Assembly (NCBI GenBank): GCA_026686805.1
Contig: GCA_026686805.1_3949.1
Length of the DNA stretch: 52,601 nucleotides
Reading direction: 5' to 3' (one strand)
DNA from: a phage
The translations under genes were made by a program, and so were the position numbers. How positions within the stretch are numbered: the first letter of the stretch is position 1; the number at the start of each line of letters is the position of its first letter. Of this stretch, positions 5,220-15,811 are shown piece by piece. The notes below the pieces were generated by a model. The model made no database searches and was not told the DNA's origin. It saw only the letters and a program-made list of their open reading frames with translations.

Positions 5220-5566
5220 TTTCCAATCCCTCTCAATCGTTTATTCCACTCAAGGTCAACAAGTCTTTGCAGGACTTTCCCTCTAGGTGTTACACCTTTT
5301 AAATCTGCATCGTAGCAACGGTAAAAGTCACCTTCAGCGTGTTTACCATAGCATTTTCTGATATTCTGACTCCTACGATATTGTTCTAATAGAGACAGCT
5401 TGTAGTAATCTTCAACTGTAGTTAGTTTTTTCATTCTTTCACCGTAGTGTTTCTCTAGAAACAAAAAGGGAACTACCTCTCGATAGCTCCCATCATAATC
5501 AGTGTTGTATACTCGGTCAAGAGTATTTTTTAGGCAGTAATGCGCTACGTTTGTTACTCTCTTCAC
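5216..5566 (-). CDS. hypothetical protein (start uncertain)
   Basis: ORF from track; overlaps upstream ORF, internal Met possible. Confidence 0.4.
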   Translation of the reverse strand: MKRVTNVAHYCLKNTLDRVYNTDYDGSYREVVPFLFLEKHYGERMKKLTTVEDYYKLSLLEQYRRSQNIRKCYGKHAEGDFYRCYDADLKGVTPRGKVLQRLVDLEWNKRLRGIGK

Positions 5567-6098
5567 TCAATAGTGCGATAAATTCGTCGCCTTTACCTTT
5601 CCACGGGCTGAATGAAGGGATATGCTCACGAATAGCCTCAATAACCGTCTTAAGTGCTGTATTTTTCATCCACCAATCAGAATCTGCTGATGCCACTACG
5701 TAGTATCCACCTTCATCAGTCAGAATTGGCTCTGAGATACATGGAGAAATCAAAGTTGTGACGATTGAACCATTGTTCATGTAGTATGTACGCTTAATAA
5801 CCTTTTCAAGAAGCTTGTGAAGGTCACCGAACAGTGTTACAAGTTCTTTGTGGTCAATGTCTTTTTCGAGGCTTGCTCGATACTTCAATAGTGCAGCATC
5901 AACCTCTCTGTCATTGAATTTGAAGTACTGGACTTCATCAACAAGGCAAACACTGATATTGTTGACATTCATAGTCAACTTACAGACTTTTGCAGGAGAA
6001 TTGATACTTGGTTGAAAAAGTGCAACACAACCTTCAATGTTCCCAAAATGTTGGACTAGTGTTACTTGTGGGGTAATATTCTGTTGCTCTTCGGACAT
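5517..6098 (-). CDS. hypothetical protein (193 aa)
   Basis: ORF from track. Confidence 0.5.
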   Translation of the reverse strand: MSEEQQNITPQVTLVQHFGNIEGCVALFQPSINSPAKVCKLTMNVNNISVCLVDEVQYFKFNDREVDAALLKYRASLEKDIDHKELVTLFGDLHKLLEKVIKRTYYMNNGSIVTTLISPCISEPILTDEGGYYVVASADSDWWMKNTALKTVIEAIREHIPSFSPWKGKGDEFIALLSEESNKRSALLPKKYS

Positions 6099-10995: not shown

Positions 10996-12411
10996 ATGAG
11001 CGAATTATTTAAACATGCGCACCTTCATGCAGGTCGAACTGAAAATGGTGCTGTAAACCATACTTCATCAATGTCTGCTCTTGTAGACTTTTACAAAGCT
11101 GCTGGTTCAAGCCGTAGCAACGTAGAAATCTTACCAGACCTGTTCTACAAAGCTTTGCGTGAGGATGTTGATGTTGTAGTTCGTATTTTGCTTCATATGC
11201 GAGATGTACGAGAAGGTATGGGTGAGCGTAAAGCCTTCAGAACTGTTTTACTTCAAGCGATTGAAGACAAAGTTTTAGAGCCTACGCAGGTTCTTCGCAT
11301 TATGGATAAGATTGCAGAACTTGGTCGTTTTGATGACTTCAAAATCTTCGTAGGTACTCGTTTCGAGACAGATGCCTTCAAACATCTAGAAGCAGCATTA
11401 CTAGACCCTGCAACAGCAGGTTTGGCGGCTAAGTGGTTACCACGAGTCAAACCACGTCATAAGCAGTTTGTAAAACGTTTCTGCAAGTTTGCCAACTTGA
11501 GTGAGAAAGAGTACCGCACACTGTTGTCTGCACTATCTGATACAGTTGAGCAAAAAATCTCTGCTAATGAGTTTGGTAAGATTGACTACAGTAAGATTCC
11601 TTCACTTGCTGCTGCACGTTACCAAAAACTGTTTAACCGCAAAGATGGAGAACGCTACAAAGCTTACATCGAGTCCTTATCAAAGGGTGAGGCTAAGATT
11701 AATGCTGGTGCTGTTTACCCATACGATGTAATTAAATCTGTTAAGCATGGTAATGCAGATGTTGCTAATGAGCAGTGGAAAGCACTACCAAACTGGATGG
11801 CAGAGGGTGAAAACATCTTGTGTATGTCTGATGTTTCAAGCTCAATGTCTTGGGTGAATTTTGGTTCAATTACTGCTCTTGATATTGGTGTTTCACTTGC
11901 ATTGTATGTAGCAGAACGTAATACAGGTTGCTTTAAGAATGAGTTGATGGTTTATTCAACAAACCCTCACTTCATCGAACTGAGTGGTGATTTACGAAAC
12001 CGTCATCGTCAGGTGATGCGACACGTTGAATATGGCTCAACTAACTTACAAGCAGCTTTTGACCGTATTCTTGAAACAGGTAAAAGAAACAACTTGACTC
12101 AGAAAGATATGCCAAGTAAGCTTATCATCTTCTCCGATATGGAGTTCAATCAGGTTGATGGAGCTAACGGTCGTACAAACTTTGAAGCAATTCGTAGTAA
12201 GTACAAAAAAGCTGGATACGAAATGCCTCAACTGGTATTCTGGTACTTAGCAAACCGTAATGGTACTTGCGAAGTGTCTGTTAAGGATAACGGTGTAGCA
12301 ATGGTATCTGGTTTTTCTCCAGCTACTTTAAAAGCTCTGCTTGGTGGTGAGAAGTTTGACCCAATCAGTGTAATGCTCAAAGCAGTAATGATTGACCGTT
12401 ATATCTGGTAA
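10996..12411 (+). CDS. von Willebrand factor A (vWA) domain protein with MIDAS motif, N-terminal helical domain
   Basis: DxSxS MIDAS-like motif (MSDVSSSMS) followed by hydrophobic strand ...LIIFSDMEFNQ; 471 aa; RBS present. Confidence 0.55.
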   Translation: MSELFKHAHLHAGRTENGAVNHTSSMSALVDFYKAAGSSRSNVEILPDLFYKALREDVDVVVRILLHMRDVREGMGERKAFRTVLLQAIEDKVLEPTQVLRIMDKIAELGRFDDFKIFVGTRFETDAFKHLEAALLDPATAGLAAKWLPRVKPRHKQFVKRFCKFANLSEKEYRTLLSALSDTVEQKISANEFGKIDYSKIPSLAAARYQKLFNRKDGERYKAYIESLSKGEAKINAGAVYPYDVIKSVKHGNADVANEQWKALPNWMAEGENILCMSDVSSSMSWVNFGSITALDIGVSLALYVAERNTGCFKNELMVYSTNPHFIELSGDLRNRHRQVMRHVEYGSTNLQAAFDRILETGKRNNLTQKDMPSKLIIFSDMEFNQVDGANGRTNFEAIRSKYKKAGYEMPQLVFWYLANRNGTCEVSVKDNGVAMVSGFSPATLKALLGGEKFDPISVMLKAVMIDRYIW

Positions 12412-12420
12412 AAAGTTTTA

Positions 12421-12457
12421 AAAAGGGTATTGACAATGTGTTTGATACCCTTTAATA
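12421..12457 (+). promoter_or_regulatory. sigma70-like promoter TTGACA-17-TAATAT embedded in a perfect 9-bp inverted repeat, upstream of the tRNA array
   Basis: -35 ttgaca 12429-12434, 17-nt spacer, -10 taatat 12452-12457; inverted repeat aaagggtat(12421-12429)/atacccttt(12444-12452). Confidence 0.45.
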
Positions 12458-12576
12458 TGTTCTACATAGAAACGAAACGAGAGCTTTTCTAAGATACTGA
12501 AAAATATTTTAAAAAAGTTCTTGACAACCACTAAAAAATAATGTTAAAGTGGTTACATAGAGTTTGAAAAGTTTAT

Positions 12577-12738: not shown

Positions 12739-12745
12739 GTTTTGA

Positions 12746-12817
12746 CAGAAGACCAATTACAGCAAACTTAATCTACTCATCTGACACGAAATCGGACAAA
12801 GAAGATATTTGGTCTGG
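12746..12817 (+). repeat. bipartite spacer element copy a (CAGAAGACC-nnWTWCAGCAA ... GGTCTGG)
   Basis: seen directly; 5' block 12746-12765, 3' block 12811-12817; agacc/ggtct can pair. Confidence 0.5.
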
Positions 12818-12828
12818 TCATTGAGAAT

Positions 12829-12905
12829 TGCGGGTATAGAGAAAGGGCGTCTCACATGTCTCATTAGCATGGTATCGGCAGGTTCGACTCCTGCACCCGC
12901 CTCCA
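12829..12905 (+). tRNA. tRNA with CAT anticodon (Met or Ile-lysidine type)
   Basis: anticodon stem catgt/gcatg, loop ctCATta, T-arm gcagg-ttcgact-cctgc, CCA encoded; acceptor has a mismatch at one end so boundaries +/-1. Confidence 0.6.
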
Positions 12906-12911
12906 ATTTTG

Positions 12912-12971
12912 CAGAAGACCGTATTCAGCAACAAAATACTTTTTGCGGATAAAAGAAAAAACACGGTCTGG
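12912..12971 (+). repeat. bipartite spacer element copy b
   Basis: gcagaagaccgtattcagcaa ... acacggtctgg. Confidence 0.5.
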
Positions 12972-12982
12972 CAATGTATTAA

Positions 12983-13059
12983 GGTTAGGAAGCACATAAG
13001 GTATGTGCGGTCGCCTGTTAAGCGAATGGCACAGGGTTCGAATCCCTGACTAACCGCCA
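12983..13059 (+). tRNA. tRNA-Asn (anticodon GTT)
   Basis: acceptor ggttagg/actaacc, D-stem gcac/gtgc, anticodon loop ctGTTaa, T-arm caggg-ttcgaat-ccctg, CCA encoded. Confidence 0.7.
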
Positions 13060-13067
13060 AATTAAAT

Positions 13068-13155
13068 GTGTCGTTATCCCGTAGATGGTAGCGGTGGGGA
13101 CTGTAAATCCCTTGTCATTGAGACTCGGTAGGTTCGACTCCTACACGGCACACCA
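13068..13155 (+). tRNA. tRNA-Tyr (anticodon GTA), long variable arm
   Basis: acceptor gtgtcgt/acggcac, anticodon stem gggga/tccct, loop ctGTAaa, long variable arm, T-arm gtagg-ttcgact-cctac, CCA. Confidence 0.7.
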
Positions 13156-13160
13156 ATAAA

Positions 13161-13237
13161 GGCTATGTAGTTTAACTGGAGAAAATACTCCCCTGTCACG
13201 GGAGATGATGTGAGTTCAAGTCTCATCGTAGCCGCCA
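13161..13237 (+). tRNA. tRNA-Asp (anticodon GTC)
   Basis: acceptor ggctatg/cgtagcc, anticodon stem ctccc/gggag, loop ctGTCac, T-loop ttcaagt, CCA. Confidence 0.75.
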
Positions 13238-13298
13238 ATTTTGAGAGGGCTATTTAGCCCCTCCCTTAAAGAGTTCTTACGAGTATTCTTTAAAGGAG

Positions 13299-13372
13299 CA
13301 GAAGACCAAATACAGCAAGAATGTATGAAATTTCAAGCCAATTTAATTTTGAAAATTTAAAACTTGGTCTGG
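13299..13372 (+). repeat. bipartite spacer element copy c
   Basis: agcagaagaccaaatacagcaa ... aacttggtctgg. Confidence 0.5.
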
Positions 13373-13385
13373 CTCAACAAATTTA

Positions 13386-13517
13386 CAGAAGACCGTTTAC
13401 AGCAAAACTTAAACAATCTATTTCTCCGGTAAAGAAAAGGCGAAGGTTCGATTCCTTCACTCGGCAGATGTCGAGTTGGTGTAATGGTAGCACTTAAGAT
13501 GATAAACAACGGTCTGG
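13386..13517 (+). repeat. bipartite spacer element copy d, enclosing a tRNA-like relic
   Basis: acagaagaccgtttacagcaa ... aacaacggtctgg; interior holds T-arm/acceptor-like and acceptor/D-arm-like segments. Confidence 0.5.
13442..13495 (+). other. tRNA-like relic in reversed half order (T-arm + 3' acceptor strand immediately followed by complementary 5' acceptor strand + D-arm)
   Basis: gaagg-ttcgatt-ccttc + actcggc then gtcgagt + ggtgtaatggtagcac; no complete cloverleaf can be drawn. Confidence 0.35.
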
Positions 13518-13666
13518 TAATTATCTTTGTAGATAAGTTATTAAGCTTACCTGTGAGTATGCGACCACAAAGGGTGAAAGGGTAAATTCTAGATTTAAAC
13601 CCAACAAGGCACATCGCTACAGACCTTAAGCAAGTCTGGGTAGCTTATCTACAAAGGTAATTTAAT

Positions 13667-13746: not shown

Positions 13747-13823
13747 GGTTCAGTCGCAGATAAGGTAATGCAAGGGTCTCATAAGCCCTATGAATGTGGG
13801 TTCAATTCCCATCTGAACCTCCA
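13747..13823 (+). tRNA. tRNA with CAT anticodon (Met, initiator or Ile-lysidine type)
   Basis: acceptor ggttcag/ctgaacc, anticodon stem agggt/gccct, loop ctCATaa, T-loop ttcaatt, CCA. Confidence 0.7.
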
Positions 13824-13831
13824 ATTTATCG

Positions 13832-14326
13832 GTGATACTTATGATTTGTGCTAACAAAGATTGCGGAAATGAAGCCGTTAAAGGTGGAAAATTTTGCTCA
13901 CGCTCTTGTTCTGCAAAAGTGAACAACAAGAAACACCCAAAGAGAAGTCAGGAAGGCTCTTGCCATTCATGCGGAAAGGTAACGCCAAAAGCAAGAAAAT
14001 ACTGTGACGAATGTATTTCAGGTGGAGTCATGAAAAAACATAAGACCCATCATGAAAAAAGCAAAGCTAAATCACTGCACGTTAAAAAGTCTCGTGATAG
14101 ACTGAAGAAGGCTTTAGTTGATTACAAGGGTGGTTGTTGTTCAATTTGTGGTTACAATAGGTGCATAAAGGCTCTAGAGTTTCACCACTTAGACCCTAAC
14201 ACAAAAGACTTCACAGTAGGTCAAAAACACTACTCACTGGCTACAATGCAGTCTGAAGTTGATAAGTGTGTCTTGCTTTGTGCAAATTGCCATAGAGAAG
14301 TACACGAAGGGGTAACAATGCTGTGA
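13832..14326 (+). CDS. HNH homing endonuclease (Cys-rich N-terminus, C-terminal HNH motif)
   Basis: C-terminal ...CSICGYNRC...LEFHHLDPNTKDF...CVLLCANCHREVHEG = HNH signature; embedded in tRNA array; stop codon overlaps start of tRNA-Ile. Confidence 0.75.
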   Translation: MILMICANKDCGNEAVKGGKFCSRSCSAKVNNKKHPKRSQEGSCHSCGKVTPKARKYCDECISGGVMKKHKTHHEKSKAKSLHVKKSRDRLKKALVDYKGGCCSICGYNRCIKALEFHHLDPNTKDFTVGQKHYSLATMQSEVDKCVLLCANCHREVHEGVTML

Positions 14327-14395
14327 AAGCACATATGGATGTGCATTCGGCTGATAACCGAAAGGTAGAAGGTTCGAATCCTTCTCACAGTACCA
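14320..14395 (+). tRNA. tRNA-Ile (anticodon GAT)
   Basis: acceptor gctgtga/tcacagt, D-stem gcac/gtgc, anticodon stem ttcgg/ccgaa, loop ctGATaa, T-arm gaagg-ttcgaat-ccttc, CCA. Confidence 0.75.
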
Positions 14396-14643: not shown

Positions 14644-14725
14644 CGGGGCGTATCTCAGCGGTCTTCTAAACCGCCGTTAACCGAGTAAGTGGAGTATGCG
14701 GGTTCGAGTCCTGCCGCCTCGACCA
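14644..14725 (+). tRNA. atypical tRNA-like gene, possible tRNA-Arg (anticodon TCT); D-arm not placeable, 23-nt region between anticodon and T arms
   Basis: acceptor cggggcg/cgcctcg, perfect anticodon arm gcggt-ctTCTaa-accgc, T-arm gcggg-ttcgagt-cctgc, CCA; geometry non-canonical. Confidence 0.35.
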
Positions 14726-14868: not shown

Positions 14869-14951
14869 ATGGGACGATGTTAAGACTCTAAGGCATGAGC
14901 AACGGCTTCCAACACCGTTTCAAAGGGGTTCAACTCCTCCGTCCCATGCCA
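14869..14951 (+). tRNA. atypical tRNA-like gene, possible tRNA-Trp (anticodon CCA); 7 extra nt between acceptor and D-arm
   Basis: acceptor atgggac/gtcccat (7/7), anticodon arm acggc-ttCCAac-accgt, T-loop ttcaact, CCA. Confidence 0.35.
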
Positions 14952-15718: not shown

Positions 15719-15811
15719 TCAGAGGTCAAGTGAAAGACCGCTGGTGTCAACTGAAGACCGTAACAAATTCCACGGAGTTGAGTTAGCGGCACAACTTCAG
15801 ACCTCTTTCAC
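15719..15811 (+). other. structured spacer element (inverted repeat agaggtc ... gacctct, internal gaagaccgtaacaaattc block)
   Basis: seen directly; related to the CAGAAGACC-containing spacer elements; function unknown. Confidence 0.3.

What the first reader, a model, noticed from the sequence alone, without database searches (positions are those of the whole stretch)
12746..13639. Repeated bipartite spacer elements (CAGAAGACC-nnWTWCAGCAA ... GGTCTGG) between tRNA genes
Four clear copies (12746-12817, 12912-12971, 13299-13372, 13386-13517) share a ~20-nt 5' block and a GGTCTGG 3' block that can pair with it (agacc/ggtct), enclosing 50-115 nt of unrelated sequence. Weaker relatives occur at 13619-13639 and 15719-15811. 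They are not tRNAs or ORFs. They could be processing hairpins, small RNAs, endonuclease target sites, or decayed miniature mobile elements.
Basis: seen in the sequence. Interest (0 to 1): 0.6.

Follow-up and report, generated by a model that had tools for sequence, protein, structure and literature searches.

The report
Phage small RNAs partnered with Ro60-like protein
The four repeats are most likely small structured RNAs of a widespread, apparently undescribed family that always sits beside a phage gene for a Ro60-like RNA-binding protein, and their shared "handle" closely resembles the hallmark of the enigmatic Class I RNAs of social amoebae.

Summary
Four exact copies of CAGAAGACC-N5-CAGCAA ... 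GGTCTGG lie between tRNA genes of a FelixO1-like phage. Each folds the same way: a 4-bp outer helix, an AGA/G internal loop, a 7-bp helix, single-stranded UWCAGCAA, then a variable interior. Both helices show compensatory or G·U changes.

They are not local oddities. A covariance model built only from distant phage contigs finds copies 1-3 in the window (E 7e-7 to 5e-5). With filters off it also finds copy 4.

The same model gives 71 and 72 hits in two independent sets of loci that encode the window's upstream ORF family (DUF2828). All 143 hits are on the gene's strand, none on the other, and most lie within 500 nt of the gene. In 13-14 loci the element abuts the gene's ribosome-binding site.

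The DUF2828 protein is 98% identical to Bas63 gp130 and is predicted to fold like Ro60. Copy 4 carries a permuted tRNA-like domain arranged as in bacterial YrlA Y RNAs.

Best reading: these are Y-RNA-like partners of a Ro60 paralog, released from the tRNA precursor. The handle also matches the dictyostelid Class I RNA signature. RNA expression and protein binding are inferred, not shown.

The parts
10996..12411 (+). ORF of 471 aa, DUF2828 + DUF7788: the predicted Ro60-like (TROVE-like ring + vWA) protein and proposed protein partner of the RNAs
   Evidence: Pfam DUF7788 3e-43 and DUF2828 4e-29. PHROG 850 'RNA-binding protein'. AlphaFold2 model pLDDT 87.7. The 12 best PDB matches are all Ro60/TROVE, E 5e-9 to 7.5e-7, TM 0.48-0.63. 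98% identical to Bas63 gp130.
12430..12550 (+). Two sigma-70-like promoters (12430-12458 and 12521-12550) at the head of the tRNA/small-RNA array
   Evidence: TTGACA-17-TAATAT and TTGACA-18-TAAAGT, 10 of 12 matches each. These are consensus matches only; the total count is no higher than in shuffles.
12743..12820 (+). Copy 1. P1 12743-12746/12817-12820; AGA 12747-12749; P2 12750-12756/12809-12815; linker UUA 12757-12759; core CAGCAA 12760-12765; variable interior with a 5-bp/7-nt-loop hairpin; 3' G 12816
   Evidence: R1 hit 12747-12819, 36.1 bits, E 7.4e-7. Rfam Dicty_Class_I_RNA 17.5 bits at 12751-12816. RNAalifold across 7 genomes keeps P1 and P2.
12909..12974 (+). Copy 2. P1 12909-12912/12971-12974; P2 12916-12922/12963-12969; linker AUU; core CAGCAA 12926-12931; 3' G 12970
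   Evidence: R1 hit 12913-12973, 36.1 bits, E 7.4e-7. Rfam Dicty_Class_I_RNA 24.0 bits at 12917-12970. P1 TTGC/GCAA versus TTAC/GTAA in relatives is a compensatory change.
13296..13375 (+). Copy 3. P1 13296-13299/13372-13375; P2 13303-13309/13364-13370; linker AUA; core CAGCAA 13313-13318; 3' G 13371
   Evidence: R1 hit 13300-13374, 28.9 bits, E 4.9e-5.
13383..13520 (+). Copy 4, the long form. P1 13383-13386/13517-13520; P2 13390-13396/13509-13515; core CAGCAA 13400-13405; P3 13408-13412/13494-13498; V hairpin 13421-13437; T arm 13442-13458 (loop TTCGATT); closed 7-bp acceptor-like stem 13459-13476; UG 13477-13478; D arm 13479-13493 (loop AATGGTA)
   Evidence: The MFE fold gives a four-way junction. 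Rfam tRNA gives a partial 22 bits at 13409-13459. RNAalifold on 6 homologs recovers all the arms named here except P3, with 3 compensatory pairs in the acceptor-like stem. R1 with filters off gives 19.3 bits, E 0.0016.
13616..13644 (+). Possible degenerate mini-copy (GCUAC-AGAC-CUUAAGCAA-GUCU-GG-GUAGC); not counted as a member
   Evidence: Hairpin with z -0.39, so no better than shuffles. No R1 hit.

Best explanation
The four elements are genes for small structured non-coding RNAs: three of roughly 65-80 nt and one of about 138 nt. They belong to a widespread family that is genetically coupled to DUF2828 genes.

All members share a 'handle':
- The 5' and 3' ends pair in a 7-bp helix. Its outer pairs are usually A-U and G-C.
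- The helix is followed on the 5' strand by single-stranded N-U-W-C-A-G-C-A-A.
- It is followed on the 3' strand by an unpaired G, often G-U.

The interior is a free cargo slot. It can be a short hairpin (copies 1-3), a permuted tRNA-like domain in the order V arm, T arm, closed acceptor stem, D arm (copy 4), or larger conserved modules in other phages.

Proposed mechanism, with steps marked as inferred:
1. The RNAs are transcribed with the tRNAs from the promoters at 12430 and 12521. They are released by the tRNA-processing machinery: RNase P at the downstream tRNA 5' end, and RNase E plus exonucleases after the upstream CCA. Inferred.
2. The handle is the binding site of the DUF2828 protein encoded just upstream. 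That protein has the Ro60 ring + vWA fold. Inferred.
3. The resulting ribonucleoprotein works like Ro60-Y RNA particles, with the variable module tethering or decoying another factor. The tRNA mimic would address tRNA-recognising enzymes or nucleases. Inferred.
4. This serves RNA surveillance or repair, or counter-defence, during infection. The Bas63 ortholog gp130 was reported to counter the ppl defence system.

What is shown here: the structure, the covariation, the family, the strand- and position-linkage to DUF2828, and the Ro60-like predicted fold.
For: Structure:
- The same P1 / AGA-G loop / P2 closing architecture appears in all four copies.
- Across 9 related genomes the ends are 93-100% identical while the interiors are 59-84% identical.
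- Interior lengths differ by non-multiples of 3, which argues against coding.
- Helix substitutions are A->G changes that give G·U. P1 of copy 2 changes G-C to A-U.

Family:
- A descriptor of the form N7-N3-CAGCAA...complement gave 112 strict hits on the DUF2828 strand and 1 on the other.
- Model R1 was built from 33 elements of non-Felixounavirus loci only. In the whole window it finds copies 1-3 and nothing else below E 0.1. With filters off it also finds copy 4.
- R1 gives 71 hits in 76 viral loci and 72 hits in 80 bacterial or archaeal assembly loci. All are on the gene strand and none on the opposite strand.
- There are no hits in Erwinia phage phiEa104, which has the tRNA array but no DUF2828 gene.
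- 59 of 71 and 54 of 72 hits lie within 500 nt of the gene, and none lies inside it.
- In the independent set, 99.1% of cells pair and all 7 pairs covary. The covariation score is 0.937 against 0.263 for shuffles (0 of 500) and 0.09-0.16 for slid controls.

Link to the protein:
- In 13-14 loci the element's 3' strand lies 7-18 nt before the DUF2828 start codon, with the Shine-Dalgarno sequence directly after ...CUG.
- The protein's predicted fold matches Ro60. The best match is the Thermus phage Ro60, which binds two phage-encoded Y-like RNAs encoded next to its gene (PMC12135203).
- Bas63 gp130 is 98% identical to the window ORF, and Bas63 carries the same four elements. The PhageMaP preprint calls gp130 Ro60-like and a counter of ppl, and speculates about Y RNAs among the tRNAs (PMC11482910).

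tRNA mimicry:
- 12 of 16 T-arm-bearing members have a T arm followed by a closed 6-8-bp stem, then U-R, then a D arm.
- Rfam YrlA gives sub-threshold full-length hits on such members: L076 at 38.9 and 28.7 bits.
Against: - There are no expression data. The RNA ends are unknown, and no discrete RNA species has been shown.
- Binding to the DUF2828 protein rests on gene neighbourhood and fold analogy only.
- The canonical Ro60-binding motifs (GGUCCGA, GNCGAA, CGAA) are absent.
- DUF2828 shows no significant sequence similarity to Ro60. The best profile-vs-PDB hit is E 0.27.
- 28 of 75 viral loci and 32 of 80 genome loci gave no R1 hit. Some of the viral ones have long-form members that only the descriptor found.
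- The first alignment, A2, was pre-selected for perfect pairing. The unselected replication (A3) offsets this.
- The promoter matches are no more frequent than in shuffles.
Confidence: 0.7

Rival explanations
1. The RNAs are real and functional but act independently of the DUF2828 protein. They might sponge or decoy a host factor such as an anticodon nuclease, a tRNA-modifying enzyme or an RNA chaperone. On this view they are merely co-inherited with DUF2828 in an RNA-repair or tRNA island.
For: The interiors of copies 1-3 and the V arm of copy 4 are 5-bp stems with 7-nt loops, which is anticodon-arm geometry. Copy 4 is a tRNA mimic. In Dictyostelium the look-alike Class I RNAs were shown to bind an RRM protein, Rnp1A.
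Against: Linkage to the DUF2828 gene is very tight and strand-specific across very distant lineages. Elements also abut the gene's ribosome-binding site. Both are hard to explain without a direct relationship. The conserved part is the handle, not the cargo.
Confidence: 0.12
2. They are cis-acting processing or stability elements of the polycistronic tRNA precursor. They would act as spacer hairpins that guide RNase E, RNase III or RNase P, or protect against exonucleases, with no function as free RNAs.
For: They sit 6-12 nt from neighbouring tRNAs in the window and in L010. They share promoters with the tRNAs.
Against: The same module occurs next to DUF2828 in contigs where ARAGORN finds no tRNA, such as L013, L014 and L017. 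Most tRNA junctions in the window have no such element. Erwinia phage phiEa104 has a comparable tRNA array but no DUF2828 gene and no elements. An invariant single-stranded CAGCAA and a tRNA-mimic cargo are not needed for a spacer.
Confidence: 0.08
3. They are operators on mRNA only. The handle would be a translational autoregulatory site for the DUF2828 protein, and the window copies would be duplicated operators without a role as separate RNAs.
For: Minimal 39-47-nt versions lie in the 5' UTR directly before the Shine-Dalgarno sequence and start codon of DUF2828 in 13-14 loci.
Against: In the window the copies lie 330-1100 nt downstream of the ORF's stop codon, behind two further promoters, and no copy precedes the ORF. 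They carry elaborate conserved cargos, and there are up to 4-5 tandem copies per locus. This rival is in any case compatible with the protein binding the handle.
Confidence: 0.07
4. They are DNA-level elements: remnants of miniature mobile elements, or recognition sites of the neighbouring HNH homing endonuclease.
For: Short inverted ends with variable cargo superficially resemble MITEs. HNH genes are scattered through the array.
Against: - The strand bias is 143 to 0.
- G·U-compatible substitutions occur on one strand only.
- The flanks are inverted complements, not target-site duplications.
- Positions are fixed in all relatives.
- The elements are retained where the HNH gene is absent.
- Helix sequence is free to vary as long as pairing holds.
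Confidence: 0.02

Closest known systems
Bacterial and phage Y RNAs (YrlA/YrlB of Salmonella, Yrn1 of Deinococcus, Yrl1/Yrl2 of Thermus phage phiLo; Rfam RF02553)
   Same: - Small RNAs encoded next to a Ro60-fold gene, often several per genome.
- The 5' and 3' ends pair into a stem that carries a conserved motif, and the interior module is variable.
- One member per genome carries a tRNA-like domain in the order V, T, closed acceptor stem, D, exactly as described for YrlA (PMC4201824).
- There is phage precedent for Ro60 plus adjacent Y-like RNAs forming an RNP with host PNPase (PMC12135203).
- The Rfam YrlA model aligns full-length to tRNA-like members at sub-threshold scores.
   Different: - The protein is DUF2828/DUF7788, not Pfam TROVE. 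Similarity to Ro60 is visible only at the fold level.
- The conserved RNA motif is UWCAGCAA plus a 3' G, not GGUCCGA, GNCGAA or CGAA.
- No window copy reaches any YrlA score.
- The RNAs are embedded in a tRNA array.
Dictyostelid Class I RNAs (Rfam RF01414; Kjellin et al. 2021, PMC7919456)
   Same: Described features of Class I RNAs are:
- length about 60 nt;
- a start of AAG;
- a 6-bp terminal stem whose structure, not sequence, is conserved, with an invariant 5' G paired to the C of a 3' CUGU;
- an 11-nt single-stranded motif CCUUACAGCAA directly after the 5' stem strand;
- a variable, A/U-rich remainder.

The phage consensus is (A)AG-N5, N-U-W-CAGCAA, an A-rich interior, then N5-CU-G(U), with a median length of about 60 nt for the short class.

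In all my scans RF01414 hit only these elements: window copies 2 and 1, L076 7937-7991, L079 5888-5943 and L053 3960-4017, at 17.5-24.4 bits.
   Different: - Scores are below Rfam's gathering threshold of 41.5 bits.
- The linker is one nucleotide shorter.
- Class I genes have their own DUSE promoter and are reported as unique to Dictyostelia.
- The known direct binder is the RRM protein Rnp1A.
- Whether dictyostelids encode a DUF2828 protein could not be tested here.
Stable small RNAs in the T4 tRNA cluster (species 1 and 2, rnaC/rnaD) (from my own knowledge, not checked here)
   Same: Non-tRNA stable RNAs encoded inside a phage tRNA gene cluster and matured from the same precursor. Their function is still unknown.
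   Different: No known shared motif, no known dedicated protein partner, and no sequence relation was tested.
Vault RNA-TEP1 and the TROVE module in general (from my own knowledge)
   Same: TROVE + vWA proteins bind small RNAs whose ends form a stem.
   Different: These are eukaryotic, with different RNA motifs. Nothing about them was tested here.

Membership tests
Y RNA / YrlA (RF02553) | Encoded next to a Ro60 (TROVE + vWA) gene | tested here: inconclusive
   The adjacent gene has a Ro60-like predicted fold. By sequence it is DUF2828/DUF7788, not TROVE, and the best profile-vs-PDB hit to Ro60 is only E 0.27.
Y RNA / YrlA (RF02553) | 5' and 3' ends pair into a terminal stem that encloses a variable module | tested here: met
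   P1 and P2 are present in all four copies. Covariation is shown family-wide.
Y RNA / YrlA (RF02553) | Ro60-binding sequence GGUCCGA / GNCGAA(N)G / CGAA in the stem region | tested here: not met
   The 5' strand reads AGAAGACCNN-UWCAGCAA and contains no CGAA-type motif.
Y RNA / YrlA (RF02553) | tRNA-like domain (V arm, T arm, closed acceptor-like stem, D arm) | tested here: met
   Met for copy 4 only. Copies 1-3 lack the domain, as YrlB does.
Y RNA / YrlA (RF02553) | Rfam gathering score of 69 bits | tested here: not met
   No YrlA hit in the window at E up to 10. The best relatives reach 38.9 and 28.7 bits.
Y RNA / YrlA (RF02553) | Physical association with the Ro60 protein | not testable with these tools
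   Needs RIP, EMSA or a complex structure.
Dictyostelid Class I RNA (RF01414) | About 60 nt, with a short terminal stem whose invariant 5' G pairs with the C of a 3' CUG(U) | tested here: met
   P2-to-P2 lengths are 66, 54 and 68 nt. G is at helix position 2 and C is its partner, followed by U and G. In the window the 3' end reads CUGG rather than CUGU.
Dictyostelid Class I RNA (RF01414) | 11-nt motif CCUUACAGCAA adjacent to the 5' stem strand (U3, C6, C9, A10, A11 invariant) | tested here: inconclusive
   The window has UUACAGCAA, AUUCAGCAA and AUACAGCAA, with the linker one nucleotide shorter. Linker U is 97% conserved in distant members without being imposed by the search. C, G and C of the core are invariant in 62 unselected hits.
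Dictyostelid Class I RNA (RF01414) | Rfam gathering score of 41.5 bits | tested here: not met
   24.0 bits for copy 2 and 17.5 bits for copy 1.
Dictyostelid Class I RNA (RF01414) | Own DUSE promoter about 60 nt upstream; dictyostelid genome | tested here: not met
   This is a phage genome. The RNAs lie inside a tRNA operon behind sigma-70-like promoters.
tRNA | Cloverleaf with an anticodon arm, detected by ARAGORN or by Rfam tRNA at 29 bits or more | tested here: not met
   ARAGORN calls none of the four. Copy 4 gives only a partial 22-bit match. Its arm order is permuted and there is no anticodon loop.
MITE-like mobile element / homing-endonuclease site | Terminal inverted repeats plus direct target-site duplication, presence/absence polymorphism, no strand preference | tested here: not met
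   The flanks are inverted complements. The elements are syntenic in 9 genomes. Family hits are 143 to 0 by strand. The elements persist where the HNH gene is absent.

The most novel reading that the evidence does not exclude
The phage RNAs and the dictyostelid Class I RNAs may be one RNA family, the cognate ligands of DUF2828-type Ro60 paralogs. That would define a second 'Y-RNA-like' RNP lineage shared by phages, giant viruses or their hosts, and social amoebae.

The reading predicts that Dictyostelia encode a DUF2828/DUF7788 protein that binds the AAG-stem-CCUUACAGCAA...CUGU handle of Class I RNAs. One candidate is the uncharacterised DDB_G0281243, which was pulled down with Class I RNA DdR-21.

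My evidence does not exclude this. The RNA signatures match feature by feature. DUF2828-fold proteins occur in giant viruses of protists. The presence of the protein in Dictyostelium could not be checked.
Probability: 0.3. Interest if true: 0.92.

Novelty: new variant of a known kind. Interest (0 to 1): 0.82.

Why it matters
- **A candidate RNA ligand for DUF2828.** DUF2828/DUF7788 is a large protein family of unknown function. It had thousands of hits and occurs in phages, prophage-bearing bacteria and giant viruses. This gives it a concrete, testable RNA ligand and a defined binding handle.
- **It turns a published guess into named candidates.** The PhageMaP authors speculated that some 'tRNAs' downstream of the Ro60-like anti-defence protein Bas63 gp130 are Y RNAs. 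Here are four specific, currently unannotated RNA genes present in at least 237 phage records.
- **It extends the Ro60-Y RNA principle.** A conserved protein handle with an exchangeable adaptor, including a tRNA mimic, now appears in a second, sequence-unrelated protein and RNA pair.
- **It offers a mechanistic lead for Class I RNAs.** These abundant RNAs were discovered in 2004, are thought to be unique to Dictyostelia, and still have no known mechanism.
- **It is practical.** A covariance model for this family would remove spurious small ORF calls in many phage annotations, for example bas63_0137 and bas63_0138, which lie antisense to copies 3 and 4.

Tried and rejected
- **Known RNA families.** Rfam 15 was searched at permissive E-values over the region and again over only 936 nt. 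No family reaches threshold, and no ribozymes, riboswitches or sRNAs appear.
- **A distant copy at L081 2627.** A loose scan matched AGAAAACC...GGTCTG there, but it lies inside coding sequence and is a chance match.
- **The weaker relatives.** 13619-13639 and 15719-15811 are not family members by R1 with filters off.
- **Kink-turn or bulge-helix-bulge for the AGA/G loop.** I considered both from the sequence. The required G·A pairs and 3-4-3 geometry are absent.
- **Coding potential of the overlapping small ORFs.** Rejected, because interior lengths differ among relatives by non-multiples of three.
- **A leader copy upstream of the window's own DUF2828 ORF.** None was found.
- **Whether Dictyostelium has a DUF2828 protein, or what DDB_G0281243 is.** Literature and supplement searches found nothing. 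The AFDB fold library was unavailable. The protein search tools list only the best hits, which are phage-like. This stays untested.
- **Avesson 2011.** The paper is not held.
Full report
**Where we are.** The window is a FelixO1-like myovirus (Felixounavirus). It is 97% identical over 2 kb to Escherichia phage garuso and to Salmonella phage FelixO1. The finding lies at the start of an array of 25 tRNA genes, all on the + strand. Directly upstream is a 471-aa ORF at 10996-12411.

**The observation.** CAGAAGACCNNNNNCAGCAA occurs four times without mismatch, at 12746, 12912, 13299 and 13386. No shuffle of 100 reached the observed count. Folding each copy with a few flanking bases gives the same closing architecture every time:
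- A 4-bp outer helix P1, different in each copy: TGAC/GTCA, TTGC/GCAA, GAGC/GCTC, TTAC/GTAA.
- An internal loop, AGA on the 5' side and G on the 3' side.
- A 7-bp helix P2: AGACCAA/TTGGTCT or AGACCGT/ACGGTCT.
- Single-stranded UUA/AUU/AUA + CAGCAA.
- A variable interior.

Nine related genomes were compared: FelixO1, two Mooglevirus phages, five IMG/VR contigs and the window. The ends are 93-100% identical while the interiors are only 59-84% identical. Interior lengths differ by non-multiples of three. The only substitutions inside P2 are A->G, which give G·U on the + strand RNA. P1 of copy 2 switches from G-C to A-U. This is the signature of an RNA-level constraint, not of coding sequence or a DNA site.

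**The neighbour gene.**
- The upstream ORF matches Pfam DUF7788 and DUF2828 and PHROG 850 'RNA-binding protein'.
- An AlphaFold2 model built on 36 homologs has mean pLDDT 87.7.
- Its twelve best PDB matches are all Ro60/TROVE proteins: Thermus phage phiLo Ro60 (9KOP, 9L5Y), Xenopus and human Ro60, and Deinococcus Rsr. They align over the full length with E 5e-9 to 7.5e-7 and TM 0.48-0.63. Isolated vWA domains come next.
- Sequence alone does not show the relationship. A profile search against the PDB gives Ro60 only at E 0.27.
- The ORF is 98% identical to bas63_0130 of phage Bas63.
- The PhageMaP preprint reported gp130 as structurally Ro60-like and as a counter of the ppl defence system. [quoted passage not shown] Bas63 has the same four elements.

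**From four repeats to a family.** I fetched 80 viral contigs that encode relatives of the ORF at 39-98% identity. A mechanical descriptor was then applied: seven bases, three bases, CAGCAA, and within 15-260 nt the complement of the seven bases. Under the strict form (helix starts A/U-G, and a G follows the 3' strand) it gave 112 hits on the gene strand and 1 on the other.

The helix sequence differs completely among lineages: AGAGCAC, AGATTAG, AGGTTCC, TGGTTCC/GGAACCA, AGGATCG and others. Features that were not imposed are nevertheless conserved:
- The middle linker base is U in 97% of 70 distant members.
- The third linker base is A or U in 96%.
- The stretch before the 3' strand is A-rich.
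- The bases after the 3' G are U-rich.

**Unbiased tests.**
- I aligned 33 non-redundant short members, none from Felixounavirus or Mooglevirus, and built covariance model R1.
- On the whole 52.6-kb window R1 finds copies 1, 2 and 3 (36.1, 36.1 and 28.9 bits; E 7e-7, 7e-7 and 5e-5). Nothing else scores below E 0.1.
- With filters off it also finds copy 4 (19.3 bits, E 0.0016).
- On 76 viral loci (873 kb, both strands) it gives 71 hits at E <= 0.05, all on the DUF2828 strand.
- 59 of those hits lie within 500 nt of the gene and none lies inside it. 47 of 75 loci have a hit.
- Erwinia phage phiEa104 is an Ounavirinae relative with a similar tRNA array but no DUF2828 gene. It has none.

**Independent replication.** I repeated the test on 80 DUF2828 loci from bacterial and archaeal genome assemblies, at 33-42% protein identity. 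R1 gives 72 hits, again all on the gene strand. 70 of them are upstream of the gene and 54 lie within 500 nt. In the model-made alignment of 62 of these hits:
- 99.1% of helix cells pair, and all seven pairs show double changes.
- The covariation score is 0.937, against 0.263 for shuffles (0 of 500) and 0.09-0.16 for slid controls.
- C, G and C of the core are invariant.
- The base after the helix is G in 60 of 61, followed by U in 45 of 61.

**A direct hint that the protein reads the handle.** In 13-14 loci from different lineages, an element ends 7-18 nt before the DUF2828 start codon. The Shine-Dalgarno sequence follows directly after the ...CUG of the 3' strand. In several of these loci the element is a minimal 39-47-nt version. 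This is the usual layout of a translational operator for an RNA-binding protein. The window itself has no such leader copy.

**The cargo.** Short members (46-78 nt, median about 60) have A/U-rich interiors.
- In the Felixounavirus copies each interior contains one 5-bp stem with a 7-nt loop. The stem is replaced by a different complementary pair in Mooglevirus: TCTGA/TCGGA versus ATTTC/GAAAT (by inspection).
- Copy 4 and at least eleven other members carry a T arm (5 bp, loop UUCRANN) followed immediately by a closed 6-8-bp stem. That stem's sequence covaries, and its loop sometimes still reads CCA. Then come U-R and a D arm with GG.
- This is a circularly permuted tRNA body whose 'anticodon stem' opens into the handle. 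It is the V-T-AS-D arrangement described for Salmonella YrlA.
- RNAalifold on six copy-4 homologs recovers P1, P2 and the V, T, AS and D arms, but not P3, which comes only from the single-sequence fold. Three pairs in AS are compensatory.
- The Rfam YrlA model aligns end-to-end to such members in L076 at 38.9 and 28.7 bits. This is below its 69-bit threshold.
- Other members have 150-250-nt interiors that fall into conserved subfamilies. One (L043 5731-5837) encloses a normal-order tRNA-Thr-like sequence.

**An unexpected look-alike.**
- The only Rfam family that touches the short elements is RF01414, the Class I RNA of Dictyostelium. It hits window copy 2 (24.0 bits), copy 1 (17.5), L076 7937-7991 (24.3), L079 5888-5943 (24.4) and L053 3960-4017 (23.4). 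It hit nothing else in about 135 kb scanned at permissive thresholds.
- Its consensus, GaUcuC-CUUACAGCAA-(A/U-rich)-GagAuC-UG, lines up with the R1 consensus, uAAAGGaUgc-UUACAGCAA-...-gcAuCCUGaUa.
- The published description of Class I RNAs reads like a description of the phage handle. It lists a length of about 60 nt, a start of AAG, and a 6-bp stem conserved in structure but not sequence.
- It also lists an invariant 5' G paired to the C of a terminal CUGU, an unstructured 11-nt motif after the 5' stem strand, and a variable remainder.
- That paper found no Class I RNAs outside Dictyostelia. Their mechanism is unknown. A pull-down recovered the RRM protein Rnp1A, two nucleotide-metabolism enzymes and an uncharacterised protein, DDB_G0281243.
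- The scores are below Rfam's threshold and the linker is one base shorter, so I do not file the phage RNAs as members.
- I could not test whether dictyostelids encode a DUF2828 protein. DUF2828-fold proteins do occur in giant viruses of protists.

**What it most likely is.** The four elements are small non-coding RNAs whose common handle is the binding site of the Ro60-like DUF2828 protein encoded next door. This is the Ro60-Y RNA logic in a different protein and RNA pair. Copy 4 is the tRNA-mimicking member (YrlA-like) and copies 1-3 are short members (YrlB-like or Class I-like).
- Shown here: the structure, the covariation, the family, the linkage and the predicted fold.
- Inferred: transcription from the promoters at 12430 and 12521, release by tRNA-processing enzymes, binding to the protein, and a role in RNA surveillance, repair or counter-defence.
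- Precedent: Thermus phage Ro60 binds two adjacent phage Y-like RNAs and recruits host PNPase.

**Alternatives.**
- *Processing spacers.* These do not explain members in tRNA-free contigs.
- *mRNA operators only.* This does not explain the window copies, which lie behind separate promoters and carry cargo.
- *DNA-level mobile elements or HNH sites.* These are contradicted by the 143:0 strand bias, the G·U substitutions, the inverted rather than direct flanks, the synteny, and retention without the HNH gene.
- *Functional RNAs that act without DUF2828.* This remains possible, but it would leave the tight linkage unexplained.

**Novelty.** I found no description of an RNA partner for DUF2828 in the held literature, and no Rfam family covers these elements. 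GenBank records annotate nothing there, or spurious small ORFs. I rate this a new variant of a known kind (Ro60-Y RNA-type RNPs). If the Class I connection reflects a shared protein partner, its reach would be much wider.

**Limits.** There is no expression or binding evidence. E-values from R1 are rough because calibration was shortened. The first alignment was pre-selected for pairing, although it was replicated on unselected hits. About 40% of DUF2828 loci have no short-form hit. The Dictyostelium link rests on RNA similarity alone.

Noticed in passing
window 14644-14722: Rfam tRNA gives 31.7 bits, above its threshold, but ARAGORN does not call it. The anticodon loop CTTCTAA suggests Arg-UCU, and there is an unusual insert after the anticodon arm. 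Bas63 annotates a tRNA-Arg at the equivalent place.
   Followed up: partly
window 14874-14950: A tRNA-like sequence: acceptor GGGACG/CGTCCC followed by a base and CCA, plus a T-loop-like GGTTCAACTCC. Neither ARAGORN nor Rfam calls it, and the anticodon loop appears to be 9 nt.
   Followed up: no
window 15719-15811: A long, stable hairpin between tRNA-Thr and tRNA-Val (-30.7 kcal/mol, z -2.96). It contains GAAGACCGTAACAAA, which resembles the 5' block, but the family model does not recognise it. It may be a different structured spacer RNA or a decayed copy.
   Followed up: partly
window 13616-13644: Mini hairpin GCUAC-AGAC-CUUAAGCAA-GUCU-GG-GUAGC. Its loop differs from the Class I motif CUUACAGCAA by one missing C. 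There is no model hit and its folding energy is no better than shuffles.
   Followed up: partly
L168 (Bas63, MZ501086) 5249-5523: Minus-strand 'hypothetical protein' ORFs bas63_0137 and bas63_0138 are annotated over or next to copies 3 and 4. They are probably spurious calls on RNA genes.
   Followed up: no
L043 5731-5837: A handle that encloses a normal-order tRNA-Thr-like sequence (Rfam tRNA 52.9 bits at 5753-5824). So the cargo slot can hold an unpermuted tRNA.
   Followed up: no
L011, L012, L016, L019, L029, L032; L046, L061, L065, L077, L079; L014, L040, L049: Long-form members (95-253 nt) fall into subfamilies with conserved interior cores. Examples are ...CUUUCUGGAGGGGAAAGCAAAAACUCGCCAAAA..., ...GCUUGCGGAACUGAACCGAUAUACUGGGGAA... 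and ...GAGACCCGGAGAUCAGUGACCUGGUUCAAAACUAAAA.... These may be further undescribed RNA modules.
   Followed up: no
L016 1761-1799, L011 5951-5990, L019 2856-2894, L061 5904-5947 and about 10 more: Elements, several of them minimal 39-47-nt handles, sit in the 5' UTR of the DUF2828 ORF with the Shine-Dalgarno sequence directly after the 3' strand. This suggests translational autoregulation.
   Followed up: partly
L081 3231-3307, L083 4374-4450; L036 11822-12176, L037 12119-12479: A tRNA with anticodon UUA (ochre-suppressor type) lies about 0.8 kb from the DUF2828 gene in L081 and L083, and tmRNA genes lie about 4.5 kb from it in L036 and L037. DUF2828 tends to sit in translation and RNA-repair islands.
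   Followed up: no
L079 4253-4443: A sub-threshold group I intron match (40.9 bits, E 5e-7) just upstream of two tRNAs and the elements.
   Followed up: no
L003 (Citrobacter phage Maleficent) 3978-4132 versus window 13747-14395: The HNH endonuclease ORF between tRNA-Met and tRNA-Ile (window 13832-14326, whose stop overlaps the tRNA-Ile start) is absent in Maleficent. This is a presence/absence polymorphism typical of a homing endonuclease and is independent of the RNA elements.
   Followed up: partly
protein family of window 10996-12411: BFVD fold search shows DUF2828-fold proteins in giant viruses of protists: Pithovirus, Marseillevirus, CroV, Mimiviridae and Bodo saltans virus. Phage TROVE/Ro-like proteins come next in the ranking, bridging the two families.
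   Followed up: partly
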